Positions 13,874 through 35,380 of a stretch of 64,000 nt of DNA are shown piece by piece. The position numbers and the translations under genes are program-made. The notes beneath the pieces are model-generated. The model did not search any database. It was not told the DNA's origin and saw nothing but the letters and a program-made list of their open reading frames with translations. Location: IMG/VR virus record IMGVR_UViG_3300042564_005549, positions 17,705 through 81,704 of that record, one strand, 5' to 3'. Position 1 is the stretch's first letter. Each line of letters starts with the position of its first letter. The DNA comes from a virus.

Positions 13874-15703
13874 ATGGCTAAAGAAATATCATACGCAACG
13901 AGGGATTTTGCCGGTTTAAGAGACGAATTAGTTTCACTAACCAAAAAATATTACCCTGAATTAATAAGTAACTTCAACGATGCATCGATTTACTCGGTGT
14001 TACTTGATTTAAACGCTGCGGTTGCAGATAACTTACACTTTCACATTGATAGGGTTTGGCAAGAAACAATGTTGGATTTTGCACAACAAAGACAATCATT
14101 ATTTCATATTGCAAAAACATATGGTATTAGATTACCCGGTTTAAGACCATCAGTTGCTTTGTGTGATTTCTCAATTAATGTACCTGTAAGAGGTGATAAA
14201 GACGATGAGAGATATGAAGGTATATTGAAAGCCGGTGCTCAAGTTTCAGGAGGAGGACAAATATTTGAAACATTGGAAGACATCGATTTCTCAAATCCTT
14301 TCAACAGTAAGGGTGAACCTAACAGATTAAAGATTCCTAATTTTGATAATAACAGTAAGTTAATATCATATACGATTACAAAAAGAGAGGCGGTAGTTAA
14401 TGGTACCACAAAAATATTCAGAAGAGTAATTAACGATGTTGACCAAAAACCGTTCTTAAAACTTTATCTACCTGAAAAGAATGTGTTAGGTGTTGTGGGA
14501 ATGATTCATAAATCAGGAACCAATTATGTTACCAACCCAACGTATGATGAATTTTCAACAGGTAATAAATGGTATGAGGTGAAATCATTAATGGAAGATA
14601 GAGTTTTTATCGAAGACCCGACAACCATTTCAGATACGGACAATTTTAAATCAGGTGATTATCTTAGAGTAGATAATAAATTTATCACAGAATACACACC
14701 TGAAGGATATTTCAATATCACTTTCGGTTCAGGAAATGTTGACCCAATGGATAATTTGGACAACTATATGAACGGAACAATGAAGGTTAATATTGCAACT
14801 TTCCTAAATAATAACTCATTAGGAAATATTCCGAGAGCAAATACCACGTTATTCATCAAATATCGTGTAGGTGGGGGTAAAGAATCGAATTTAGGAGTTA
14901 ATGTAATCACATCTGTAGATACAATTGATTTTGCTTTAAACGGTCCAAATTCAACAATAAACGACCAAGTTTATCAATCATTAAGAGTTACCAATATTAC
15001 ACCGGCAGTTGGTGGAGCAGATTCCCCAACAATCGAGGAAATTAGAAATATGGTTGCGTATAATTTCGCAGCACAAAATAGAGCGGTTACATTAAACGAC
15101 TACAAATCTTTGATTGAGACAATGCCATCAACATACGGAGCACCTGCGAAGGTTAGTGTGATGGAAGAAGATAACAAAGTAAGAATCAAATTATTATCAT
15201 ACGATAGTGATGGTAACTTAACTGACATTGTTTCTAACACATTAAAGAATAACGTATTAAATTATTTGGCTAAGTTTAGAATGTTGAATGACTTCTTAGA
15301 CATTATGAGTGGTGAGGTCATTGATTTAGGTTTAGAAATTGACTTGGTAGTTAACAAAAACGAAAGTCAAAGTGATGTACTTAAAGAAACAGTTAATACG
15401 GTTACAAGTTTCTTCGCAATTGACAAACGTAAAATGGGTGACCCATTATTCGTAGGTGATTTAATGAGAGAAGTTGGTAATGTTACAGGAGTAGTAAACG
15501 TTGTTGAAATCAGAGTCTTTAATAAAATTGGAGGGAAATATTCATCTGCTGAGATATCTCAAGCGTACAAAGATGACATAACTAAAGAGATTTTACAGTT
15601 TGATTCTACCATATATATGAAATCAAATCAAATCTGTCAAATTAGGTTCCCACAATCAGATATTAAAGTTAGGGTAAAAACTTTAACTTCGGCTACATAT
15701 TAA
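13874..15703 (+). CDS. Baseplate wedge subunit (T4 gp6 / baseplate J-like)
   Basis: RDF..LR..L, I.FG.G, YRVGGG..SN, GGAD...IEEIR and QNRAVT..DY motifs; follows gp25. Confidence 0.88.
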   Translation: MAKEISYATRDFAGLRDELVSLTKKYYPELISNFNDASIYSVLLDLNAAVADNLHFHIDRVWQETMLDFAQQRQSLFHIAKTYGIRLPGLRPSVALCDFSINVPVRGDKDDERYEGILKAGAQVSGGGQIFETLEDIDFSNPFNSKGEPNRLKIPNFDNNSKLISYTITKREAVVNGTTKIFRRVINDVDQKPFLKLYLPEKNVLGVVGMIHKSGTNYVTNPTYDEFSTGNKWYEVKSLMEDRVFIEDPTTISDTDNFKSGDYLRVDNKFITEYTPEGYFNITFGSGNVDPMDNLDNYMNGTMKVNIATFLNNNSLGNIPRANTTLFIKYRVGGGKESNLGVNVITSVDTIDFALNGPNSTINDQVYQSLRVTNITPAVGGADSPTIEEIRNMVAYNFAAQNRAVTLNDYKSLIETMPSTYGAPAKVSVMEEDNKVRIKLLSYDSDGNLTDIVSNTLKNNVLNYLAKFRMLNDFLDIMSGEVIDLGLEIDLVVNKNESQSDVLKETVNTVTSFFAIDKRKMGDPLFVGDLMREVGNVTGVVNVVEIRVFNKIGGKYSSAEISQAYKDDITKEILQFDSTIYMKSNQICQIRFPQSDIKVRVKTLTSATY

Positions 15704-23072: not shown

Positions 23073-23981
23073 ATGGCAGTAGGAAGTTACGGAACTATAA
23101 GACCGGCAGACGTTTCACCAGCAGATGTTGATATATATTATCACTTTGTTTCAGGTAGAACTGCAAGTACTGAAGTTCAATTTGAAAAACTCGATAATTC
23201 CCAAGATGTATTGACACCGGTTTACCATAATGACACAACAGGAGGTAATTCAGGTACGGAAATATTGGGCGGGATGTATAATTTAAAATTAGAATCTTCG
23301 AGATTTTCGGATTTAGGTATATATACACTTTATCTAAGACCCAAACAAATTAGAACAATCGTCACTGATTGTGGTGTATTATCTTCTTTGCCGTCAGTAA
23401 GAGGTTTGATTATTGATATTTCACAAATTGATAGTTCGGATGCTAACAAATTCACACCACAAGGATTAGTTGGTTACAGAATTGAGTATTTGGATGATTC
23501 AGGGGCTAAAATTCCTAATTTCTTTAGGGTAGTGACTTCTTCATTCTATTGTGAACCAGTTTTATCTAATTTAACGAATTCATCACAGAAAGCGATTAGA
23601 TACAGATATTCAGATATAACAACAAACTTAATGTTTTTGACATTAACACCTAGCTCTTCGCCGTCTAGTAGACCTAATACCATACCGTTTATTGGTCAAC
23701 CAAACCAAAATATCATTTTGACAAACACTCATTTCAATCCGGTTATGTTGGAAATTGAAATGGTTGAACACGATGCTACCACATTGGCACACGCACTTTA
23801 TGGTAATCAAAGTAAGTCAGTTAATGATGGTATTTACACAATTTATGACCAAAATAATCAAATCTATAAGCAGTTTAACTTATACGAAATTAAAGACGAT
23901 ATTAACGAAACACTATACGAGATTAGAGAAAAGAATGATAATATCGACGAAACATTAAACTTTGATGTTATAACTCAATAA
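23073..23981 (+). CDS. Putative virion structural protein
   Basis: 302 aa; TATTTAT motif upstream; coupled to the next gene. Confidence 0.65.
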
Positions 23982-26900
23982 TGGCTAAAATAACAAGAAA
24001 GGTCCCATATCAGGCGGCTAGTGGTGGTGAAACGTTCAATGACAAACTCATCGGTTTACAAATAACCGATGGTAGTTCTCAATTGGCCAATACTCAATTT
24101 CTTATCGACAGAGTAATTCCTGAAAAAGACAGTAAGACTTTTCATACCCAACCATTTTCTGATTTCTTAACATTAGATACATTACAGGAAGAGAAGAATT
24201 CAATTTATGATGATAACTCAATGGGTAGTACTCTACCTGAGAGAAGTAAGAAAATTAAATTCCACGATTCTAAAAACGATGCAACAAAATCGTTATTCGG
24301 TTCGTTATCGACAAGATTAAATGGTGCAGTTGCGAATATCATTGAAAGTTTTCCTGCTGCGTTATTAGTCGATGTTGATTCACCTTCATCATCAACAAGT
24401 GTCAGTGCGGTATTAACAGGTGTAACTTACGGTTATGACCAATTATCGAATACCACAAGATTTAAATTTAAAAAGTCATTAATTTATAATCCGTTTGATA
24501 TAGTAATTCAAAAACCGGAAGGAATTGAAATATTACAATCAACTAACACATATAGAGATTTTTATTCATCATATACCAAATATGTAATAGATAACCTTAT
24601 CGGTTCAACATTTGAAATTGTTTCCTATGATGAACCTGACAATGACGGTTACGCATCGATTAAAGTTAATGGTCGTTGCTTTCCGGGTTACAATGAATAC
24701 ACCGACAATTATTTAATCAGACCAAATAATGCAGTTACTGAAGAATTCTTCAATAGTTTAGATGAATTAGAAACTGTTTTATTAGATAGAGAATCTACAC
24801 CAAAGTACACTGCGGCGTTTAAAGTTCCAACTGATTTATATGATGGAGCGGTTAGTGAATTGCAAAATGAATATGCAACTTGGCCAATTAGTAGAGATGG
24901 ATGGAACTTACAGATTGTTGGTCTTGATTATGAATCATACGTATCGACATTAAGTAACATTGGTAATATTGTGGATGATTATAAATCTAATTTAATTATT
25001 AGATTCTTAACGTCACCACAACTTTACGAATTCGATACCGAAGAGAAAAAGGCGGAAGCCATTTTCCAATTATACGGACAAAGTTTTGATAAGATAAAGA
25101 AATTTATCGACAACATTGCGTTTATGAGGAATGTTAGTTATGACAAAGCTAACAACGTACCTGACGTATTATTAAAAAACTTAGCCGAAACTTTAGGATT
25201 ATCAACAGTTAACTTGTATGATGAAAAATCATTACAAGAAATATTATATACAAGACATAGCCCACAATACGAAGGTGTTGGAATGGGTGTTAACTTATTA
25301 GAAGGTGAATATGAATTCTACAGAAGATTAATCGTCAATCTTGCACATTTATACAAATCAAAAGGTACAAGATTAGCCATTGAATTCTTTTTGAAATTCA
25401 TAGGTGCACCAGAGCCGATGATTAGATTGGATGAATATATCTATCGTGTTGATAGTTTATTACCAAAATCAACGTATGAAAATGACATCAGAGAAGTTAT
25501 CAGTGGAGTTAAAGAATTCAATCACGTTGAATTTGTTCCATTTGCAACAACAATTGACGGAGTCGATTACAATGCCTTTACTTACAGATTAGTAACCACA
25601 TCAGGCTCAACAGTATTATCAAGAACTGAATACCCTGTAACAACAGATGGTTTACCAAGAGCATTGAAAAGCTCTGATGGTTCATTGTACTTTGCAATGG
25701 GTGCGGGTTGGTATAGAAAAACATTAGACCATAGGTCTGGTGACATTTTAGATAGAGAAAATTCTATATTAACAGGTAACACAAAAGTACTTAAGACAAA
25801 ATCAAAACCATTCACATATGGTGAAGATTACTTCAACAATTATAGACAATTACCAGGTTTAGATTACGGTTACGATTTAAACATCGAAATCGATAATAAA
25901 AAAACTGAGGTGTTGGATGATGATGGTAACTTCACATATAAATTAAACAGAAAAAATATTAATGTTTTCTTAGATGGTTCACGAGCAATTGATTATGACA
26001 TCTATAGAAAGAGTAGAAACTTAACATTAGACTTTGGTACATTACCTCCACAGGAAAAACCATCATTTGCCGAGTTTTTAAAAGAGGCGGTTAGTCAAGT
26101 TATTAGAAACTCAAATACTATAAAGTATAAAAAAGAGTATCGTTTATTAAAACAAGTGTATGAAGCTTATGTTAATAGTGTTTCATTCACCCCATACAAC
26201 TATATTAAAATAAATGAATTCATTCAAAGAATGAGTCCATATTGGGTTAATGTGATTGACCAATTTGTTCCTGCAACCACACAATGGTTAGGAGGTAACT
26301 TAATTGAGAACGGTACATTTGGAAGGTCTAAGTTTCAATACAAACAACCTTGTACACCAAAAGAATTTGTTGAGGTATTATATCCTGATTTTGAAACTGT
26401 AATTGAAGAAGATTTAGAAACAATTATAGGTGGAGGAACAACGACATATGAGAACGCAACTAACGAAGATAGTTTAAGAGGTTTATTCTCATTAAGTGGA
26501 TTAACCTATACAATTTACTTAAACATCAATGGAAACATCTATTCAGGAACAAGTTCTAATTTACGTTCAGAACTTTTTACAGGATACACCCCAACAGTTA
26601 ATTGTACATCATTAACAAATACTACGAGTTCAATTCCATTAATTTGTGAATATAAAAATTGGATTAATTTAAACTTACCGTTAATTAAAAATGAATGGAA
26701 AGAAACATTAACCGATTTAGTACAGACAATCAATACACAAATAACCCAAGACAATTATGGTTGTATTGATGATTATGCACCATACACTGCAAAGACTCAA
26801 ACATCTAACTGTTCACAAGTTTATAAAAAGACACTTTCATTAGAGTACTTTTTAGATATTGACGGAGTTGAAAAAGTAAGATTCACGTTAGATACTACAG

Positions 26901-29806
26901 ATTGTAGAAATGGTGAAAGTATTGATTTTTATTTTGAACCGAATTATGGTTTAGATAAAGATGAATGTAATTTAAGAGTTGAGTTATCAGGACCAGCAAT
27001 ACCGTACCAAGGTTCAACAACTAATTGTCAATTAGTTGAAGATGTTTACATAACGGTTACGGGTACAACGACCGGTGTTGAAAATAATGGAATTTGGGAT
27101 TTAAACATTTATATAACCAGTGGTACAACTTGTAACACCGGAGTATGTACTGATTGTGATTTCATAGAAATCAATGACCCAAAACCAATTAAGAGAGCGA
27201 TATATGCGGATGATTTAGAATTAGTTACTTGTACGTATATTATCCCTAATGTTAAAGAAACAGATGTTTACGATATCATTATTTCCGATGCTGCAAACTG
27301 TGAACAAAAATTCAGAATTGAGGGATTACAACAAAAGGTAGTCCAAATTTCTGATGAAGTAAGTGGATACACTATAAATCCTAAAGTACAATATAAAACT
27401 TCTTTTGATTATGGTATAAAGAAAGGAACTGAAATTTACAAATATGTTTCAGGTTCGGTTCCAACAACTTGGCAAGGTCTACAAAGTAGTCTTGTGTCTG
27501 GAAATGTTATTGAAGCATTTATTGAAGATATAGAAATAGGGGATAGAATTTTAAGTATAAGTCAAAAAGATTGTAATCTACAACCAACTGAAATGTTTAA
27601 GTTTGTTGAGGACAATGGATATCAATTTACTTTTGATTACTCGTTAGTTACAGTTGGAAGAAAAGAATGTTTAAGTTCTATTAAGAAAGATGTTATTAAC
27701 GGTGAGTTTGAAGTGTTACCAACAAGTAAAATATTGGTTTACACTAATATTAATGAATACTTAGAAACGGTTCCATATCATTTTACATACAAATATCCTG
27801 AAGATTTATTTGTAAGACCCGAACAACCTGAAATGCCTTGTTGTGAATATCCTGAAGGATATTTCCAGAGTGGTGACTTTATGATAAATCAATTTGGTTT
27901 TCCTATTGAGGTAACAAGTGTTGATTTAAACTATTGTAATAGAGGAATTTACTACACGTTAGTAACATCTGGAACTTCAATTAATTCAGATACTATTTTA
28001 TTTAATGGACCTTCAAGTGGAGTTAATCGAATTATCATATCAACTAAAAATGATTCGGCCTATATTAGTCCGTTTACAGGAAATAAGTTTGAGTGTTTAG
28101 ATATTGACACCCAACAATATTATTTAGGTTATGAATGTGATACGGTTCCAAGTGTTGCAAGTCTAACAAGATTAACAGGATGTACTGATGGTGACTGTAC
28201 TCAAGTACAGGCAGGTCCAAATGCTCAAAGGTCATTTATTGCCGAGGATACAACTCCAACACCAACCCCTACGCCGAGTCCAACACCAACACCTACCCCA
28301 ACACCGACAGGAACTCCAACCCCTACACCAACTAGTACACCGACACCAACAAGTACACCTACGCCAACTGCGACTGGTACACCTACACCTACACCAACTG
28401 AAACACCGGTACCACCAACGGCAACACCTACACCTACACCGACCCCAACACCGACAGGTACACCAACGGCAACACCAACAGTAACCCCAACACCGGTTTG
28501 TGAATTCAACATATCTGTGGATGTTGTTATACCAACTGCAACACCAACACCAACGCCAACATCGACACCAACACCTACACCTACACCGGTTTGTGAATTC
28601 AATATTGGTGTAGATATCATTGCGTCTACCCCAACACCAACGCCAACATCGACACCAACACCTACACCTACACCGGTTTGTGAATTCAATATTGGTGTAG
28701 ATATCATCGCATCAACTCCTACACCTACCCCGACACCAACACCTACGTCAACACCAACTGCAACTCCTACACCTACACCGGTTTGTGAATTCAATATTGG
28801 AGTGGATATAATTGCATCAACTCCAACACCAACACCTACACCGAGCCCAACGCCTACAGGTACCCCAACTAATACACCTACAGCGACTCCAACCCCAACA
28901 CCAATTTGTGAGTTTGGTATTACTGTAGATATTATTGCGTCAACACCAACTCCGACTCCGACTCCAACACCTACAAATACTCCGAGTCCGACACCTACAA
29001 ACACACCAACTAATACTCCAACTGCGACACCTACACCGACTCCAATTTGTGAGTTTAATATTGATGTTGTGGTTGTACCTTCTACACCAACACCAACACC
29101 TACGTCAACACCAACATCAACTCCTACAAGTACCCCAACAAGTACTCCGACTAACACACCTACACCTACACCAACGGCAACTAACACACCTACACCTACA
29201 CCGACAGCAACTCCAATTTGTGAGTTTAATATTGATGTAGTGGTAATCGCGTCAACTGCAACACCAACACCTACCCCAACACCTACCCCAACCGCAACAC
29301 CGACTAACACACCAAGTCCAACACCTACTAACACTCCAACCGCAACACCGACTAACACACCAAGTCCAACACCTACAAGTACACCAATACCTTGTGAGGC
29401 AACAATTACAAATACAAGTAACCCAACAAGTTGTGGTAACAATGCTGATGGTTCATTAACATTGAATGGTTCGGGTGGTGTCGGTCCATATTCGTACTAC
29501 TTATATGAAGATACTTCATTCCCTTATGAGACATCAGGTGGTACTGTATATCCAGGATTCCCAGTTCATAATCAAACAGGAGGTTACAATGTAACAGATT
29601 TAGTACCGGGTGGTTATTACTTAAGAATTGTAGATGCGAATGAATGTGAAGACTTTAGTGAAGTTGTGGTATTACCATATGACGACACTACTTGTGTAAC
29701 ACCACCATCATCATATTTCTGTAAGGAAGATAATTTTAGCCCTTGTCTTGAACAACTAAACCCTTGCGGACCTAGTCAAATAGTATGTACAGAATTTGAA
29801 GTATAA
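23981..29806 (+). CDS. Giant baseplate wedge (gp7/P2 gpI-like) protein with degenerate Hint-like domain, Pro-Thr repeats and C-terminal SprB repeat
   Basis: LYKSKGT..AIEF.L and IDQFVPA wedge-type motifs; Hint-like segment ~27413-28050; PT tract; SprB-like SC....DGS.....SGG..PY.Y...L..G.Y...I.DAN.C. Confidence 0.65.
28250..29390 (+). repeat. Pro-Thr low-complexity coding repeat with seven interspersed P[VI]CEF.I.V... spacers
   Basis: Seen in the translation; includes an exact 77-nt duplication (28544-28620 = 28631-28707). Confidence 0.9.
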
Positions 29807-29867
29807 TAAGGCTTGAAAATAATAATAAAAAATAAGATATTTATATAAAACAAAACAAACACTAAAA

Positions 29868-30371
29868 ATGGAAACAAATCAAAAAGGATGTTTAGTCCAA
29901 GGAACATTAATCTCAATGGCTGACGGAACTTCAAAAGTTATTGAAGACGTTGTTGTTGGAGATTTAGTTAAATCAGTAGTTTTAAATCAAGAGGAAGGTA
30001 TTTTTGAAGAAACTGTAGGTACCGTTGTAGAATTACAACAAGAAGAAACAGAATTAGTATACTCATTAAATGAAGGTTTACTAATTGCATCTGAAGACCA
30101 CAAACATATTGTTAGACAAAAAACACCTGAAGGTGATGCATATACTGAAAGATGGATTGTATGTAGTACAACTTTTGTTGTTGAAGACGATAAAATGATG
30201 GGTGCTGATGGTATTGAAATCACAATAACATCAAAAGAAGAAGTAACAGGAACTAAAACAGTTCATAACTTAGTAATAGAAAACCATAACACATTTATTG
30301 CAAATGGTGTTATTACTTATAACGAAATATTACCTGAAGTAACGGAAGAAGAAACTCCGGCTGGAGAGTAA
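29868..30371 (+). CDS. Stand-alone Hint (intein/BIL-like) domain protein
   Basis: G|CLVQGTLISMADGTSKVIEDVVVGDLV (block A), SEDH (block B) and VHNL...NTFIANGVITYN|E (blocks F/G). Confidence 0.85.
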   Translation: METNQKGCLVQGTLISMADGTSKVIEDVVVGDLVKSVVLNQEEGIFEETVGTVVELQQEETELVYSLNEGLLIASEDHKHIVRQKTPEGDAYTERWIVCSTTFVVEDDKMMGADGIEITITSKEEVTGTKTVHNLVIENHNTFIANGVITYNEILPEVTEEETPAGE

Positions 30372-30389
30372 TTTAAACAAAATTAAAAT

Positions 30390-30968
30390 ATGTTAGCAAC
30401 ATTTTATTTAACAGGACCATTTTCAGCATCGACATTATCGACTGAATTTACCATTACAGGAGAACCAGGAGGTATAGTTCACCCTGGTGTGACAAAAGCA
30501 CAATTATTAACAGGACACACAATTGTTTTTGTCGATTCGGTAACCGGAGGAACAGTTACGGCAACCAATGAAACTTGTGAAGGAACACAAAAAAGTTGGG
30601 CAGTAATTCAATCTACTCCAACGCCAACTCCTACTCCAACAATTACATCAACACCATTACCTCCACTATATGGATTCTTCCGTAGTAATCCATCAGTAGA
30701 AGCTCTTGGACATTGTGAGCAAAATCAAATAACAAGTGCATTATTCTACAGTACATCAACAACAATTTCGGGTATGTTAGGTACAACGGTATATGACGGT
30801 AATCAAGACCCTTGGGTTGGTGGAGATTTCTATTATGCGGTTTCTTCAGACGATACATTTAACACTAACGACCAACCATATTCGGTTATTGAAGTTGATA
30901 ATTATGGTATGGTTACTGATGTTCAATATATCACGGATTGCGGCGGTGGCGGCGGTGCAATAGTATAA
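30390..30968 (+). CDS. Pro-Thr linker virion/adhesin-like protein
   Basis: PT linker, shared C-terminal domain and Gly-rich tail CGGGGGAIV. Confidence 0.7.
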   Translation: MLATFYLTGPFSASTLSTEFTITGEPGGIVHPGVTKAQLLTGHTIVFVDSVTGGTVTATNETCEGTQKSWAVIQSTPTPTPTPTITSTPLPPLYGFFRSNPSVEALGHCEQNQITSALFYSTSTTISGMLGTTVYDGNQDPWVGGDFYYAVSSDDTFNTNDQPYSVIEVDNYGMVTDVQYITDCGGGGGAIV

Positions 30969-30996
30969 AATAAAATATTTTTAAATAAATTAAATT

Positions 30997-31024
30997 AAAC
31001 CCCTTCACAAAAAGGGGTTTTTTT
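30997..31024 (+). terminator. Rho-independent terminator
   Basis: aaacccctt/aaggggttt stem followed by a T-run. Confidence 0.75.
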
Positions 31025-31068
31025 ATGGTTTATTTTTAATAAAAAAAAGGATATACTATTTATGTATT

Positions 31069-32472
31069 ATGGGATTAGTAATTAGACTGCACGATATTGT
31101 ATCACCGAACCAATTTAAGGTTTACTACAAGCAAGCAACATCACCATATCCAATGAATAGTGGGTATAGTTTGTATGGGACTTTTAGTGCCGGTACAACA
31201 ACTGTAAACGTTAGCGGAATTACAATTAATTTTAATTCAAATTATTGGTTTAAAATAGAAGACCAATCAACCGGTCGATATATTATTGAAAATATTGAGA
31301 CAAACGACCCGATTGCATATATGGACTGTTGTCCACAACCGGTATCGTTAGGCGCAGTTTGTTATCATAGTTGTTACCCACCAACAATTAATAGTATTAG
31401 TTGTGTTGGACTTGCGGACCCAACTCCAACTCCAACACCAACTCCTACAAGCACACCAACTCCAACACCAACTGCAACATTAGTTGCCCCGACAGCTACA
31501 CCAACTCCTACACCTACATCAACATTACCTGGACCAACAGCAACACCAACGCCTACACCAACAAGTACACCTACACCAACACCAACAATTACACCAACAC
31601 CATTACCTGGGTGTAGTTCTATTGTAACGGGTGAGTATAGTGGTTCAGATTTCTATAACTACCCTGATAATCAATTAAATTTTACAGGAGTCCCTAATGG
31701 TGCAACAATTAACTTTACTTGTACAGCAAATGATAGACCAAATAATATTTCAATTAGAACAGCGTTAACTGTACTTGAAAGTACAGGATGGTTTGGTAAT
31801 TCTTCAGGATATGATTCGGGAGATTATTGGTATCCAACCGAAGGAACTGGTCCTATAACATTATCAATCACGTATGATAATACTAAAACATATTATATAG
31901 ACGCATTAACAGCGCCGGCTTTAGCTGCACCTAACGAAGTGAACGATTATTGGGAAGTAAGTATACAGTGTTTAGGTGTACCTACACCAACACCAACAAT
32001 TACACCAACACCAACAAATACTGCAACACCTACACCAACACCTACACCAACGGACCTACCTATTTATACATTCTATAGAGCTGCTGAAGTAATTGATGAT
32101 AATATCTCAACAACTTATTGTAACAATTTCCCTGGCGGTCAAGGTTATAATATTAGTTCACCATTCTATACAACAGATTCAATGTTAATTCCGGGTTCAA
32201 CTGTAATCTATAGTGACCCTGCTTTAGTAAACGAGATTGTAGGTTCTTGGTCATTAAGTAATGTAACTAGAATGGCTTACATTACTCAGACTGAATATCA
32301 AAACGCCTCTGTTACTCCGACAACAACTAACCCTGAAGGTGATACGTTATATGATGGTGGCATATATAAATGGATGAGAGTAAATTCAGATGGAGTTGTA
32401 ATGTCTACAGGTACCGACAGTTGTACTGATGGTGGAGGTGGAGAAGGACCTGAAGGACCGAATGTAGAATAA
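31069..32472 (+). CDS. Multi-domain Pro-Thr linker virion/adhesin-like protein
   Basis: Beta-rich domains separated by two PT tracts; C-terminal domain paralogous to that of 34196-35380. Confidence 0.7.
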   Translation: MGLVIRLHDIVSPNQFKVYYKQATSPYPMNSGYSLYGTFSAGTTTVNVSGITINFNSNYWFKIEDQSTGRYIIENIETNDPIAYMDCCPQPVSLGAVCYHSCYPPTINSISCVGLADPTPTPTPTPTSTPTPTPTATLVAPTATPTPTPTSTLPGPTATPTPTPTSTPTPTPTITPTPLPGCSSIVTGEYSGSDFYNYPDNQLNFTGVPNGATINFTCTANDRPNNISIRTALTVLESTGWFGNSSGYDSGDYWYPTEGTGPITLSITYDNTKTYYIDALTAPALAAPNEVNDYWEVSIQCLGVPTPTPTITPTPTNTATPTPTPTPTDLPIYTFYRAAEVIDDNISTTYCNNFPGGQGYNISSPFYTTDSMLIPGSTVIYSDPALVNEIVGSWSLSNVTRMAYITQTEYQNASVTPTTTNPEGDTLYDGGIYKWMRVNSDGVVMSTGTDSCTDGGGGEGPEGPNVE

Positions 32473-32502
32473 AATTAAAATTAAAAAAGAATATAAATAA
32501 AA

Positions 32503-34170
32503 ATGGCGGCAGCAAGCATAACGGTTAATTACACAGCAGGTTGTACAGGATGTACTCAAGAATATAGATATGTTGTCAGTACTGGCGACATTAACACTGC
32601 AACTGTTATACCATATTCAGGTTCATCACCTTTAGTGATTACCGGTTTAACAACTGGTAATTCATATACCGTACAAATGAGAAATGTATGTGAATTAATC
32701 TCAAGTGATTGGACATCTACACAAACCGTTACTTGTAACGCAATCATCACGCCAACCGCAACACCAACACCAACTCCTACAAGTACACCTACACCAACCG
32801 CAACAGCTACACCAACTCCTACACCAACATTACCTGGACCAACCGCAACACCAACACCAACTCCTACACCAACATTGAATATAATTGACCCTGAAGACCC
32901 AACTGTTTATTATTATTATGCATTGGGAGATTGTAATGATATGAGATATTCATATACTGCAATTACTATTACAGGATTTAGTGCCCCTATACAAATACCA
33001 GGTTGTGCAACATTAACTGAAATTGGTACGTTATCATTACAAAATCCCGCAACAACATCAATTGTATTATCTGACCCATTAGACCCTTGCGGTTTTGGTG
33101 AAAGTTATTCAGGAGTCGCAATTGGTAGAAGTACATCATCATTAACTGAAGGTACGGTATATCTTGTTGGTGACCAATGTTTATCTATCATTGCGGTAGA
33201 AACTCAATATGTTGAAAGTTGGAGTGTTAACTTAGATGGTATATCACCAATTGCTGGTGATAATCCTTGCGGAGCTTGTGACCCACCATTTACAGGTTTC
33301 CAAATATCAGGATTTAGTGGTACAACTTGTGACACAGGTGAAAATATAATTGCTTATTCCTTAATTACTCCTGGAGTGTTAGGTAATGTATATGGAATAC
33401 AAATGTATAGTGGTGGTACTGCGGTAGGTTCTGCAAAATGTGCAACTTTAACTACAAATTTAGGTGTACAATTTGTTATAACTGACCCTGAAACTGAAGG
33501 TATTACAGGATATGGTATAAGTGATTTGGGTCCATTTGAATTAGGTCAACCGATGTTCCAAGGATATGAAGATTGTGCAACTTGTGAGGGTGTTGAACAA
33601 AAATATATGATTGTAGGTGAAAGATGTGATACCACGGGTAGTGTGACAATTTGGTCAGATACACCACCAACAGTCGTAAGTGGAGATACTATTTCGGTTA
33701 ATATTTTTGGTACAATAGCGTGTTTCCTTGTAACACAAGCAGACCAATTTACATCCGTTGTTTATAATGATATTGGAAATACAATAGTAGAAACAGGTTG
33801 TGATTGTAATGGAAATAGTGGAGGTGCAAATGTAAACGTTGCAAGTATTGTTGCAGCACCGATGGATAGTAGTAGTACATATAGTGAATGTCAAGGTTCA
33901 ATGGGGCAATATTACAATGAATATTACGAATATGATATAGAATTAATATTCAAAGATTCAAGTAATAATTCAGTTATACCTAATCAACCGGTTGAGTATC
34001 GTATTAATGGAGGTTCTTGGGTACCTACAACAGCAAATTCCACTACAATAGTGATATCGACTACATTAACATATTATGATAATACCGCTTGTGGTGGTGG
34101 ACCATATGCAGATACTTTAGATGTTAAAGTTGGCACAATAACAGTTCTTAATTACACTGCAGGAAGTTAA
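32503..34170 (+). CDS. FN3-like + Pro-Thr linker + Cys-rich protein
   Basis: N-terminal ITGLTTGNSYTVQMRNVC...SDW (fibronectin III-like), a PT tract and Cys-rich modules. Confidence 0.7.
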   Translation: MAAASITVNYTAGCTGCTQEYRYVVSTGDINTATVIPYSGSSPLVITGLTTGNSYTVQMRNVCELISSDWTSTQTVTCNAIITPTATPTPTPTSTPTPTATATPTPTPTLPGPTATPTPTPTPTLNIIDPEDPTVYYYYALGDCNDMRYSYTAITITGFSAPIQIPGCATLTEIGTLSLQNPATTSIVLSDPLDPCGFGESYSGVAIGRSTSSLTEGTVYLVGDQCLSIIAVETQYVESWSVNLDGISPIAGDNPCGACDPPFTGFQISGFSGTTCDTGENIIAYSLITPGVLGNVYGIQMYSGGTAVGSAKCATLTTNLGVQFVITDPETEGITGYGISDLGPFELGQPMFQGYEDCATCEGVEQKYMIVGERCDTTGSVTIWSDTPPTVVSGDTISVNIFGTIACFLVTQADQFTSVVYNDIGNTIVETGCDCNGNSGGANVNVASIVAAPMDSSSTYSECQGSMGQYYNEYYEYDIELIFKDSSNNSVIPNQPVEYRINGGSWVPTTANSTTIVISTTLTYYDNTACGGGPYADTLDVKVGTITVLNYTAGS

Positions 34171-34195
34171 AAATAAAAAAACGTATTTATAATAA

Positions 34196-35380
34196 ATGGC
34201 ACAATTAATATTAACTTGGTCGGCACCTTCGGATTGTAGTGGATGTACTTTTGAATATAGGTACAAACTTAGTAGTGCATCAACATATGTAACAGGTGCA
34301 ACAAGTAATACTATTGTAACAATTAATAATTTAATTGACGCTCAAACATACAATTACAGTGTTAGGACCGTATGTCCTGATGCTGGAGGTAATTTAAGAA
34401 GTAGATGGTTAAATGGAAGTTCAGTTACTTGTAACACGAATCCACCATTACAACCAACACCCACACCTACAATTACCCCTACACCTACATCAACACCAAC
34501 TAGTACTCCAACACCGACACCAACGGCGACCGTATTAACACCAACCGCAACACCTACCCCAACTCCTACACCTACAACAACCGTAGGGTCTTGTTTAAGT
34601 GGTGATTTGACATCTTCAGGTAATTGTAGTAGTTCAGATTTGGCATCGTTTACATTATCTAGTGGTTATCAAGCAACGATTACACCAAGTGGATTTTTCT
34701 ATAGTGGTACAGGAACTAGATATGCTTATGCATATTTAAGGACAAGTACAGGGACTAACATCCAACAATTTACATTAACGCAAGTTAACAGCACCACACC
34801 AACATTCTCACCAAGTACGTATACAATTACGACACCAGGTTCATATCAACTTTACGTACAACAAGTTGATTGTAATCAGGGAGGCACAGGAGGTTCGGGT
34901 ACAATGAGCCTTACTGTTGGTAATTGTCAAGTTTATACTGCACCGACTCCTACTCCTACCCCAACTCCAACAGCACAGCCAATTTACACTTTCTATGCCG
35001 CGAGTCAAATACTTTGGGATAATGTAGGAACAACATATTGTAGTGAACCGGGATATATTATGTCAGGTCCATTATACTCTCTTGACGCAACACTCACACC
35101 GGGCTCAACAGTATTATACACTGACTATACTTTAGAAACGGAATATGTTGGTGGATGGACTAATAGTTCAAACTATCGATTTGCGTATATTACCTCAACG
35201 GACCATCAATTATATACAAATTATCCGAGCTATCCAAACACCATTGACCCTGACGCAGATGGAAATATGGGAGGGATATTCAAATTTGCCGGCGTAGATG
35301 AAAATGGTGTTGTACAAACAACAGGAATATATAGTTGTAGTGGTGGAGGTTCAGGTGGAGGCGATGGTGCCATTGAATAA
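34196..35380 (+). CDS. FN3-like + Pro-Thr linker protein
   Basis: LTW.AP...YRYK...INNL....YNYSVRTVC FN3 signature; Gly-rich C-terminus. Confidence 0.72.
   Translation: MAQLILTWSAPSDCSGCTFEYRYKLSSASTYVTGATSNTIVTINNLIDAQTYNYSVRTVCPDAGGNLRSRWLNGSSVTCNTNPPLQPTPTPTITPTPTSTPTSTPTPTPTATVLTPTATPTPTPTPTTTVGSCLSGDLTSSGNCSSSDLASFTLSSGYQATITPSGFFYSGTGTRYAYAYLRTSTGTNIQQFTLTQVNSTTPTFSPSTYTITTPGSYQLYVQQVDCNQGGTGGSGTMSLTVGNCQVYTAPTPTPTPTPTAQPIYTFYAASQILWDNVGTTYCSEPGYIMSGPLYSLDATLTPGSTVLYTDYTLETEYVGGWTNSSNYRFAYITSTDHQLYTNYPSYPNTIDPDADGNMGGIFKFAGVDENGVVQTTGIYSCSGGGSGGGDGAIE

What the first reader, a model, noticed from the sequence alone, without database searches (positions are those of the whole stretch)
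27413..30371. Hint pair in the tail locus: degenerate Hint fold inside the giant wedge protein, followed by a stand-alone Hint gene
Seen: 29868-30371 is almost only a Hint domain, with a 7-aa N-flank (METNQKG), Cys1, block-B His (SEDH), terminal Asn (ITYN, Tyr replacing the usual penultimate His), +1 Glu and a 15-aa acidic tail. It has its own TATTTAT motif. Also seen: the 1941-aa gene just upstream has a segment that lines up with it block by block (GIKKGTEI ~ CLVQGTLI; [12 protein letters not shown] ~ IEDVVVGDLVKS; [15 protein letters not shown] ~ LNEGLLIASEDHKHIV; [18 protein letters not shown] ~ DDKMMGADGIEITITSKE; IYYTLV...DTILFNG ~ VHNLV...NTFIANG) but lacks Cys1 and the block-B His. Established: Hint domains normally act in cis, and +1 Glu rules out canonical splicing. 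Inference: a Hint with almost no exteins could act in trans by thioester transfer, cleavage or cross-linking, or could dock on the dead Hint as an assembly module for Pro-Thr appendages. That would be an undescribed virion-decoration system.
Basis: partly seen in the sequence, partly recalled or inferred. Interest (0 to 1): 0.8.

Follow-up and report, generated by a model that had tools for sequence, protein, structure and literature searches.

The report
Passenger-less Hint gene beside dead Hint
An uncultured giant freshwater phage carries a small gene that encodes only a self-cutting intein-like (Hint/BIL) domain, next to a huge tail protein holding an ancient, inactivated copy of the same fold; both are real, but nothing shows that they work as a pair.

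Summary
Both observations hold. The 167-aa gene (29868-30371) is a bona fide Hint domain. Its model matches the Tetrahymena BIL2 domain (Z 20.4, rmsd 1.9 A), and a profile of the family hits BIL2 at E 5e-12. Gly-1, Cys1, S-x-D-H and the terminal Asn are invariant across lineages only 46% identical. dN/dS is 0.21, and an invariant promoter-like motif lies upstream.

Residues 1141-1361 of the 1941-aa protein also model as a Hint fold (Z 15.0). This copy is dead: Gly replaces Cys1 in 81 of 81 relatives, and the His and Asn positions drift.

The pair idea is not supported.
- The two domains show no significant sequence similarity to each other (BLASTP E 0.6).
- The free Hint branches inside a clade of C-terminal "cap" Hints found on phage adhesin-like proteins, not with the embedded domain.
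- The dead Hint occurs in at least 80 relatives. The free gene occurs only in one freshwater subclade, always in a cassette of giant-protein tip, promoter motif, Hint gene and fibre gene.

The +1 Glu/Gln is normal for type-A BIL domains. Function is untested. The most likely activity is self-cleavage of a passenger-less cap within the host-range cassette.

This scan already found the same family on another genome (e1-5636227). Verdict: a new variant of a known kind, of moderate interest.

The parts
23981..29806 (+). 1941-aa giant tail-locus protein (P0001). It has a conserved trunk (about residues 1-1400), a Pro-Thr/Cys-bead stalk and a variable distal tip.
   Evidence: ORF. 25 homologues of 1344-2383 aa and at least 246 IMG/VR relatives. 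It lies five genes downstream of a gp6-like baseplate wedge gene (phrog_219). There is no PHROG, Pfam or PDB sequence match outside the PT region, so the name 'wedge' is unverified.
27401..28063 (+). Catalytically dead Hint-fold domain (P0001 residues 1141-1361), with about 70 aa of insertions.
   Evidence: AF2 model m8cfc9d1929ef. VIA-align gives Z 15.0, rmsd 2.2 A over 140 aa to 6y75, and Z 14.8 to 2lwy. Foldseek's top 20 hits are all Hint folds. Hint HMM E 7e-5. Gly1145 replaces Cys1 in 81 of 81 loci. The block-B His position (H1267) and the terminal-Asn position (T1355) vary.
28250..29386 (+). Pro-Thr stalk of the giant protein with repeated Cys-containing 'CEFNI(G/D)VD' beads.
   Evidence: Read directly from the translation. 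GC skew inversion at 28001-30000. Not analysed further.
29387..29806 (+). Distal tip domain of the giant protein (residues about 1803-1941).
   Evidence: Homologues at 55% identity or more occur only in the 10 loci that also carry the free Hint gene immediately downstream.
29837..29845 (+). Promoter-like motif ATATTTATA, 22 nt upstream of the Hint start codon.
   Evidence: 7 copies in the window, all on the + strand, 6 just upstream of ORF starts. AAGATATTTATATA is invariant upstream of the Hint gene in 11 loci whose Hint proteins are only 46% identical. Promoter function is inferred.
29868..30371 (+). Stand-alone Hint / type-A BIL-like gene (P0002, 167 aa). Cys8 is encoded at 29889-29891, His78 at 30099-30101, Asn152 at 30321-30323 and Glu153 (+1) at 30324-30326.
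   Evidence: dN/dS is 0.21 against L001 and L002.
30390..30968 (+). 192-aa fibre-like protein (P0003). It has a conserved N-terminal module of about 75 aa, a PT linker and a swappable tip ending in DCGGGGGAIV. It is always the next gene after the Hint gene.
   Evidence: The gap to the Hint gene is 16-21 nt in all Hint-bearing loci, and at least 4 different tips occur on the same N-module.
30997..31020 (.). Terminator-like hairpin (AAACCCCTT...AAGGGGTTT followed by a T-run) that closes the putative Hint-P0003 transcription unit.
   Evidence: It is a pattern match only.

Best explanation
There are two separate things.

1. The 167-aa gene
It encodes a catalytically competent Hint domain of the bacterial-intein-like type A kind (Cys1, terminal Asn, no +1 nucleophile) that has lost its passenger. 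It descends from the self-removing C-terminal Hint 'caps' carried by adhesin- or fibre-like proteins of related phages. In one clade of giant freshwater phages it is kept as its own late gene, inside the recombining host-range cassette: tip of the giant protein, promoter motif, Hint gene, fibre gene.

Most likely mechanism (inferred):
- The protein cuts itself.
- An N-S acyl shift at Gly7-Cys8 makes a thioester that is hydrolysed, shedding the heptapeptide.
- Asn152 cyclises and sheds the acidic tail. This step is probably slower where Tyr replaces the penultimate His.
- What remains is a core of about 145 aa with an N-terminal Cys.
- That core, not the peptides, is the working product. It is probably an accessory in assembly of the neighbouring fibre or tip.

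2. The Hint fold inside the giant protein
It is an independent and much older fossil. It sits at the junction between the conserved trunk and the variable distal part, in the position where polymorphic toxins carry an active pre-toxin Hint. It has lost the nucleophile, so it can only be structural.

Shown: the folds, the residues, selection, synteny and phylogenetic placement.
Inferred: self-cleavage (about 0.6) and an assembly role (about 0.25).

The overall confidence of 0.6 applies to the identity of both domains, their independence and the cap origin. It does not apply to the biological role.
For: Fold and family
- P0002; embedded domain.

Catalytic conservation
- Gly-1, Cys1, S-x-D-H-K and (Y/H)-N-(E/Q)-I-L are invariant in 11 stand-alone genes down to 46% identity.
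- dN/dS is 0.21.
- The upstream motif is invariant.

Type-A BIL character of the wider family (198 domains)
- Cys1 in 196.
- An HN end in 176.
- +1 Lys in 113, and +1 Cys/Ser/Thr in only 16.
- Type-A BIL chemistry without a +1 nucleophile is described in PMC4031507 and PMC7765530.

Origin from caps
- The stand-alone clade is monophyletic (0.99). It nests at support 1.0 in a 41-tip clade. Of the 29 other tips, 24 are C-terminal caps.
- One of these is L003. Its 704-aa PT-linker protein ends ...GCTSGGC|LIKG...THN|KALPTA, directly upstream of the g718/g203 homologues of a related 236-kb phage contig.
- Cap passengers carry fn3, BACON, DUF5977 or VWA domains.

Cassette
- The Hint gene is always found between a giant-protein tip (55% identity or more) and the P0003 N-module.

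Independence of the dead Hint
- Gly at position 1 in 81 of 81 loci.
- The free Hint gene is present in only 1 of the 80 IMG/VR loci, and about 20 of those have at least 1.5 kb downstream.
- Trunk homology mostly ends at residues about 1330-1440, just after the dead Hint.

Expression
- Weak hints only: RNA-library contigs at 29841-29991 and 30278-30428.
Against: - No activity has been measured.
- The penultimate residue is Tyr, not His, in the window lineage, so C-terminal cleavage may be weak.
- A 7-aa passenger has no obvious use. Conservation of the catalytic residues therefore lacks an identified beneficiary.
- The cassette association may be shared descent rather than function, because all Hint-bearing loci belong to one subclade.
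- I found no sequence link between the Hint-capped passengers and this phage's fibre proteins.
- The RNA evidence consists of contigs from RNA libraries, which can contain DNA.
- A 150-aa domain tree has limited resolution.
Confidence: 0.6

Rival explanations
1. First reader's model. The free Hint and the dead Hint are a functional pair. The free domain either docks on the dead one, or transfers a thioester in trans, to cleave, cross-link or attach Pro-Thr appendages.
For: - The two lie about 1.8 kb apart and are the only two Hint hits in the window.
- The giant-then-Hint order is conserved in 10 loci of a subclade, although the Hint protein has diverged to 46% identity.
- The catalytic residues are kept without an obvious cis substrate.
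Against: - The dead Hint is present in all 81 relatives tested, whereas the free Hint is absent from the more distant ones with sequenced flanks.
- The two are not paralogues.
- The Hint gene tracks the giant protein's tip domain and the next fibre gene, not the dead Hint.
- Hint domains are single-turnover enzymes acting on their own covalently linked substrate (PMC4031507).
- No interaction test was possible.
Confidence: 0.08
2. Non-canonical (type-A BIL) splicing. Asn152 cyclisation frees the amine of Glu153, which attacks the Gly7~Cys8 thioester. The product is a 22-residue peptide (14 residues in the sister lineage).
For: - This mechanism is proposed for type-A BILs that lack a +1 nucleophile (PMC4031507).
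- Both flanks are kept at a fixed short length, with the conserved motifs M-x-x-x-x-x-G and (E/Q)-I-L-P.
Against: - Cleavage products dominate over splicing in type-A BILs (PMC4031507).
- The x-x-L/P-P tail is a feature of the whole cap subfamily (KALPTA, KIAPPIE, AKPLP), so it is not a specific extein.
- The tail length differs between lineages, 15 aa versus 7 aa.
- Tyr replaces the penultimate His here.
Confidence: 0.07
3. Functionless relic. An orphaned domain was left behind when module shuffling in the fibre cluster detached a cap Hint from its passenger, and it is drifting towards loss.
For: - The gene lies in a hypervariable region where modules are swapped.
- One relative (L172) carries a recombinant Hint gene.
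- The Hint protein diverges faster (46%) than the giant trunk (64-72%).
Against: - dN/dS is 0.21.
- The reading frame is intact in all 11 loci.
- All catalytic residues and the upstream motif are invariant.
- By contrast, the truly inactive embedded Hint has lost its catalytic residues.
Confidence: 0.1
4. A degenerate mini-intein. Its host gene has been destroyed or split, and the short flanks are extein remnants.
For: The fold and blocks A, B, F and G are intein-like. Inteins score nearly as high as BILs: Z 19.1 for the Ssp DnaB mini-intein variant M86 (6frh).
Against: - There is no +1 nucleophile in any lineage.
- There is no homing endonuclease.
- There is no neighbouring gene fragment: the flanks are only 7 and 7-15 aa, and an in-frame stop lies 18 nt upstream.
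- The nearest relatives are caps on non-conserved adhesin-like proteins, not inteins in conserved enzymes.
Confidence: 0.03

Closest known systems
Type-A bacterial intein-like (BIL) domains, for example BIL2 of the Tetrahymena thermophila BUBL1 locus (PDB 6TMM, 6Y75) and the Clostridium thermocellum BIL (PDB 2LWY)
   Same: - Best sequence and structure matches: E 5e-12, Z 20.4 and 19.1.
- Cys1, the block-B His and the terminal Asn are present, and there is no +1 nucleophile.
- It lies in a hypervariable, non-conserved context.
   Different: - Known BILs sit inside or between passenger domains. This one has only 7- and 15-aa stubs and its own promoter-like motif.
- The penultimate residue is Tyr in this lineage.
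- It is encoded by a phage.
C-terminal Hint 'caps' on phage adhesin- or fibre-like proteins (uncharacterised; for example L003, P0074, P0092, P0165)
   Same: - They belong to the same Hint subclade, with support 1.0.
- They share the Gly-rich junction before Cys1 and the HN-x-x-(L/P)-P tail.
- L003 lies in the same genomic region of a related jumbo phage.
   Different: The caps are fused to a passenger of 100-800 aa that they presumably release. Here the passenger is absent.
Pre-toxin HINT (Pfam PF07591) of polymorphic toxins
   Same: - Close relatives pass the PT-HINT threshold: P0074, P0089, and P0011 by precomputed annotation.
- In the giant protein the embedded Hint sits just before the variable C-terminal part. 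PT-HINT sits the same way, just before the variable toxin domain (PMC3482391).
   Different: - P0002 itself scores below every Pfam Hint threshold and has no toxin domain.
- The embedded copy is catalytically dead, so it cannot release the distal part.
Hedgehog C-terminal autoprocessing domain (PDB 1AT0, 6TYY)
   Same: - The fold matches: Z 17.8 for P0002 and Z 13.4 for the embedded domain.
- Its C-terminal position and N-terminal-cleavage-only logic resemble those of the cap relatives.
   Different: There is no sterol-recognition region, and a terminal Asn is present.
Self-cleaving C-terminal intramolecular chaperone domains of tailspikes and fibres (Peptidase_S74). This comparison comes from my own knowledge, not from a tool result.
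   Same: The logic is analogous for the cap relatives: a C-terminal domain that removes itself from a fibre protein.
   Different: The fold and chemistry are unrelated. No evidence here shows that the Hint caps act as chaperones.

Membership tests
HINT superfamily (P0002) | Hint horseshoe beta-fold | tested here: met
   AF2 model with pLDDT 85. Z 20.4, rmsd 1.9 A over 141 aa to 6y75, and 86 chains at Z 8 or more (those listed are BIL, intein or Hedgehog entries).
HINT superfamily (P0002) | N-terminal nucleophile (Cys/Ser1) and block-B (T/S)-x-x-H | tested here: met
   Cys8 aligns with intein residue 1. S75-E-D-H78 is present, and Cys and D-H-K are invariant in 11 lineages.
HINT superfamily (P0002) | Autoprocessing activity | not testable with these tools
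   This needs expression and mass spectrometry.
Canonical (class 1) intein (P0002) | +1 Cys/Ser/Thr on the C-extein | tested here: not met
   +1 is Glu in the window lineage and Gln in the sister lineage.
Canonical (class 1) intein (P0002) | In-frame insertion in a host protein whose exteins form a functional protein | tested here: not met
   The flanks are 7 aa and 7-15 aa. An in-frame stop lies 18 nt upstream and the gene has its own promoter-like motif.
Canonical (class 1) intein (P0002) | Penultimate His plus terminal Asn (block G) | tested here: inconclusive
   Asn152 is invariant. The penultimate residue is Tyr in the window lineage and in L168-L171, and His in L162-L166.
Type-A BIL domain (P0002) | Cys1, an intein-like C-terminal (H)N, and no +1 nucleophile | tested here: met
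   In the wider family, 196 of 198 domains have Cys1, 176 of 198 end in HN, and 16 of 198 have +1 Cys/Ser/Thr. The definition is taken from PMC4031507.
Type-A BIL domain (P0002) | Embedded in hypervariable regions of non-conserved proteins | tested here: not met
   It lies in a hypervariable gene cluster, but as a separate ORF without a passenger. Its relatives do meet this feature.
Type-A BIL domain (P0002) | BIL-specific sequence motifs (Amitai et al. 2003) | not tested
   No BIL-specific profile is at hand. The best PDB matches are BIL2 and the C. thermocellum BIL.
Pfam PT-HINT PF07591 (P0002) | Score at or above the gathering threshold (27.7 bits) | tested here: not met
   P0002 has no PT-HINT hit, and its best Pfam Hint hit is 19.4 bits against a 32.1-bit cut-off. 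Relatives P0074 (32.2 bits) and P0089 (29.2 bits) pass, and P0011 carries the annotation.
HINT superfamily (embedded domain, P0001 1141-1361) | Hint fold | tested here: met
   Z 15.0, rmsd 2.2 A over 140 aa to 6y75, and 67 chains at Z 8 or more (those listed are Hint folds). Foldseek E 5.7e-5. HMM E 7e-5.
HINT superfamily (embedded domain, P0001 1141-1361) | Catalytic Cys/Ser1, block-B His and terminal Asn | tested here: not met
   Position 1 is Gly in 81 of 81 loci. The His position is H/F/Q/R and others. The terminal position is T/H/G/F or a gap.
Hedgehog Hog domain | Sterol-recognition region after the Hint module | tested here: not met
   Only 15 low-confidence residues follow Asn152.
T4-type baseplate wedge protein (giant protein) | Sequence or profile similarity to gp6, gp7, gp8 or gp10 | tested here: inconclusive
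   There is no PHROG, Pfam or PDB-sequence match outside the PT stretch. The only support is its position downstream of a gp6-like gene. The N-terminal 1100 aa were not folded.

The most novel reading that the evidence does not exclude
The free Hint is a trans-acting covalent assembly factor. After shedding its heptapeptide it exposes an N-terminal Cys (a 1,2-aminothiol). Alternatively it holds a thioester. Either form is used to ligate or cap a partner in the cassette: the giant protein's tip, the P0003-type fibre, or the fibres' Cys + poly-Gly tails. That would be the first Hint-based protein-ligation step in virion assembly.
Probability: 0.07. Interest if true: 0.85.

Novelty: new variant of a known kind. 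Interest (0 to 1): 0.45.

Why it matters
Hint domains are understood as cis-acting, single-turnover enzymes that exist to process the protein they are fused to. Here the domain has almost nothing fused to it. Yet its catalytic residues, its reading frame and its upstream motif are all conserved under purifying selection.

- If it self-cleaves, the product of interest is the domain itself or its reactive end. That would widen the known uses of Hint chemistry and could provide a very small natural self-cleaving tag.
- The family of C-terminal Hint caps on phage adhesin- and fibre-like proteins appears to be undescribed. No paper was found. It suggests a Hint-based maturation step for phage receptor-binding proteins.
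- The dead Hint shows that this fold can be kept for a long time as a purely structural module in a virion protein, at the trunk/tip junction where modules are exchanged.

None of this changes a major paradigm unless trans activity is shown.

Tried and rejected
- Paralogy of the two Hints. BLASTP gave E 0.6 and hhalign 2.8%. No sequence-level relation was found beyond the shared IEDxxVGD motif.
- GenBank phages. No match for P0002 or P0001, so no cultured relative is available.
Context was obtained instead from IMG/VR and JGI scans.
- Lead from earlier notes: the fibres' Cys + poly-Gly tails (DCGGGGGAIV and similar) might be the linker that precedes Hint caps elsewhere.
  - Many caps are indeed preceded by Cys-x-Gly-rich junctions.
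  - BLASTP and an HMM of the three fibre tails against 149 Hint-bearing proteins found nothing (best E 0.017).
  - The database search with the g394 tail found only 366-411-aa proteins without a Hint domain.
  - The resemblance is therefore motif-level only.
- P0003 N-module versus the N-terminus of the Hint-capped P0145. Pairwise E was 0.021, but a 10-sequence profile of the module did not recover P0145. Rejected.
- Another Hint domain or intein elsewhere in the window or contig. None was found.
- Readthrough or frameshift fusion with the giant gene. The two are in different frames, there is a double stop TAATAA, and 61 nt of AT-rich spacer separates them. Rejected.
- PDB profile search with the full giant-protein alignment. 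It hit only low-complexity PT matches.
- Literature. Searches for stand-alone or free-standing Hint domains, and for Hint domains in tail fibres, found only ordinary inteins in terminase, helicase and similar genes.
- RNA evidence. Only 151-nt contigs from RNA libraries were found, which is too weak to claim transcription.


Full report
**Setting**

The window is part of an 81.7-kb IMG/VR contig that CheckV rates 24% complete, which implies a genome of roughly 340 kb. Relatives lie on contigs of 210-350 kb. It carries replication genes: NrdA, DnaB-like, UvsX-like and SbcC-like. It also carries a gp6-like baseplate wedge gene at 13874-15703.

Downstream of that gene lies a syntenic block: g599, g268, g312, g302 and the 1941-aa giant gene. 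A hypervariable stretch of fibre-like genes follows, then g718 and g203. Neither the giant protein nor the small Hint protein has a match in GenBank phages. Near-identical DNA occurs in 17 lake, freshwater or crustacean-associated metagenome runs from at least 13 studies.

**The small gene**

The gene at 29868-30371 encodes 167 aa: METNQKG, then Cys8, a 145-aa core...ITYN152, then Glu153 and an acidic tail.

- Pfam Hint models hit only below threshold.
- A profile of ten homologues hits the BIL2 domain of the Tetrahymena BUBL1 locus at E 5e-12, over both halves of the domain.
- phmmer against 1.8 billion representatives finds 905 relatives.
- The AF2 model (pLDDT 85, with both flanks disordered) superposes on BIL2 at Z 20.4, rmsd 1.9 A over 141 aa. 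It superposes on the C. thermocellum BIL at Z 19.1. Residue 8 falls on intein residue 1 and residue 152 on the last residue.

**Is it alive?**

Eleven stand-alone genes from IMG/VR and JGI contigs fall into lineages that are 100, 87, 80 and about 46% identical to the window protein. All of them keep the following:
- Gly-1, Cys1 and CL(V/I)QGTLI;
- S-x-D-H-K;
- F-x-A-N-x-x-x-T-(Y/H)-N-(E/Q)-I-L.

dN/dS against the 87% relatives is 0.21. The 14 bases AAGATATTTATATA upstream of the start are invariant in all eleven, so they are better conserved than the coding sequence. ATATTTATA occurs seven times in the window, always on the + strand, and six copies lie just upstream of ORF starts. A terminator-like hairpin follows the next gene. 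RNA-library contigs touch the 5' end of the Hint gene and the Hint-P0003 junction, but that is weak evidence. One relative (L172) carries a Hint gene whose N-half is of one lineage and whose C-half is of the other.

**What kind of Hint?**

I examined 198 full-length domains in the 150 best representative proteins.
- Cys1 is present in 196.
- 176 end in HN.
- +1 is Lys in 113, and Cys/Ser/Thr in only 16.
- 48 are followed by at most 25 residues (34 by at most 10, often a single Lys). Those are C-terminal caps.
- Many stand in tandem arrays.
- Only 3 have an N-flank of at most 15 aa.

This is the signature of type-A BIL domains. Those lack the +1 nucleophile, mainly cleave, and can ligate through the freed amine (PMC4031507). 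They lie in hypervariable regions of non-conserved proteins (PMC7765530). The +1 Glu is therefore ordinary for this family.

In a FastTree phylogeny the stand-alone genes form one clade (support 0.99). That clade nests at support 1.0 in a 41-tip clade. Of the 29 other tips, 24 are C-terminal caps. Their passengers carry fn3, BACON, viral BACON, DUF5977 or VWA domains.

One such cap is in L003. It sits on a 704-aa PT-linker protein that ends ...DKGCTSGGC|LIKG...LLTHN|KALPTA. That protein lies directly upstream of the g718 and g203 homologues of a related 236-kb phage contig, in the same hypervariable slot. The free gene is therefore best read as a cap that lost its passenger. BFVD also holds Hint-only phage proteins of 132-172 aa, for example in Lactobacillus phage P1. 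Passenger-less Hints are thus not unique to this clade. I found no paper about them.

**The embedded domain**

By pairwise sequence the resemblance to the small protein is not significant: BLASTP E 0.6 and hhalign 2.8%. Both find only the IEDxxVGD stretch.

Structure settles it. An AF2 model of residues 1090-1400, built on 25 homologues (pLDDT 75, and above 80 over most of residues 60-190 of the segment, with dips further on), retrieves only Hint structures.
- Foldseek's top 20 are all BIL, intein or Hedgehog entries.
- VIA-align gives Z 15.0, rmsd 2.2 A over 140 of 153 residues to BIL2, spanning P0001 1141-1361.
- About 70 aa of insertions account for the greater length.

My 198-domain Hint HMM also finds the site: P0026 6e-7, P0014 7e-6 and P0001 7e-5. 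In a six-frame scan of the whole window this is the only hit besides the small gene.

Segment residue 56, which is G1145, falls on intein residue 1. This position is Gly in 81 of 81 loci. The HMM places the block-B His on H1267 of VPYHF, which is H, F, Q, R or other residues in relatives. The terminal-Asn position (about T1355) also varies. Its block-B register is about 15 residues off. The domain is a dead Hint, and it is dead in the whole family.

Trunk homology among relatives mostly stops at residues about 1330-1440. The fossil therefore marks the boundary with the variable distal part. Polymorphic toxins carry an active pre-toxin HINT in the same position (PMC3482391).

**Are they a pair?**

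Of 80 IMG/VR loci with a giant-protein homologue, about 20 have at least 1.5 kb of sequence beyond the giant gene. Only the 91%-identical relative has a Hint gene. In relatives at 57% identity or less, the slot between the giant gene and g718 holds other fibre genes.

A metagenome scan with the 49%-identical stand-alone protein P0011 changed my first impression. It recovered loci in which a giant protein 64-72% identical to P0001 is followed by a 151-153-aa Hint gene and then by a P0003-like gene. The arrangement is therefore conserved within one subclade. There the Hint gene always sits between a giant-protein tip that is at least 55% identical to residues 1796-1941 and the conserved 75-aa N-module of P0003, whose distal tip is swapped at least four times.

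The dead Hint exists without the free one, so it does not depend on it. Whether the free Hint needs the giant protein's tip or the P0003-type fibre cannot be told, because all carriers share descent. No multimer prediction was available.

**Leads that failed**

Earlier notes of this scan pointed to the Cys + poly-Gly tails of three fibres. Cap Hints are often preceded by Cys-x-Gly-rich junctions. I found no homology between those passengers and this phage's fibres. A marginal P0003/P0145 match (E 0.021) did not survive a profile test.

**Verdict**

The free gene is a new variant (passenger-less, and expressed on its own) of a known kind, the type-A BIL/Hint domain. An earlier follow-up of this scan reached the same description on another genome (e1-5636227). 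The dead Hint is a separate, older structural fossil. The most likely activity of the free domain is self-cleavage.

Noticed in passing
window 3667, 23049, 29837, 35404, 47047, 52251, 59549 (+ strand): ATATTTATA occurs 7 times, all on the + strand, and 6 copies lie 13-51 nt upstream of ORF starts. It is probably a phage (late?) promoter element. Upstream of the Hint gene, the extended form AAGATATTTATATA is invariant in 11 relatives.
   Followed up: partly
L172:110-610: This is a recombinant stand-alone Hint gene. Residues 1-58 match the P0011 lineage and residues 59-167 match the window lineage, so there has been exchange inside the gene between co-circulating phages.
   Followed up: partly
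window 30390-35380; L129, L002, L162-L172: The fibre genes are modular. A conserved N-terminal module of 75-116 aa and a PT linker are joined to freely swapped tips. The P0003 N-module carries at least 4 unrelated tips in relatives, and P0003's own tip sits on a different gene in L129.
   Followed up: partly
L011:8513-10468, L021:8135-10477, L061:8129-10423: Phage proteins of 650-780 aa share an N-terminal region of about 450 aa (LLEINTDT...). It is followed by one to three tandem Hint domains, each running C...HN(K/R), with the last ending the protein.
   Followed up: no
L017-L022 (e.g. L017:9794-10498), L072:5130-5840, L005:9812-10900: These are small proteins of about 235 aa. A 55-65-aa N-terminal domain (MAL..G.I.....IHVEAGG...NDSDIR) and a Gly/Ser linker precede a Hint domain with a short tail. 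L005 has two Hints. The arrangement looks like a small domain that is released or activated by a Hint.
   Followed up: no
window 28490-29255: Seven repeats of a short Cys-containing strand (P(V/I)CEF(N/G)I.VD) are strung on Pro-Thr linkers in the giant protein. The same bead type (DCSFDVNVD, CDFGIDVN) occurs in homologues P0014, P0015 and P0029.
   Followed up: no
window 29387-29806: The giant protein's tip reads C.G..DGS.T....GG.GPY.Y, which resembles adhesin repeats of Bacteroidota as I recall them. Weak copies (26-35% identity) occur in other downstream genes of L098, L127 and L159. No Pfam hit was obtained.
   Followed up: no
window 29300-31100 (runs X1-X17): Near-identical DNA is found in lake-water, freshwater and crustacean-associated metagenomes of at least 13 studies from 2017 to 2025. 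This is a widespread freshwater phage lineage without a cultured relative.
   Followed up: partly
window 29860-29870 and other gene starts: There is no Shine-Dalgarno-like sequence before the Hint gene or P0003. The leaders are A-rich. Together with 33% GC and the PT linkers this hints at a Bacteroidota host, but that was not tested.
   Followed up: no
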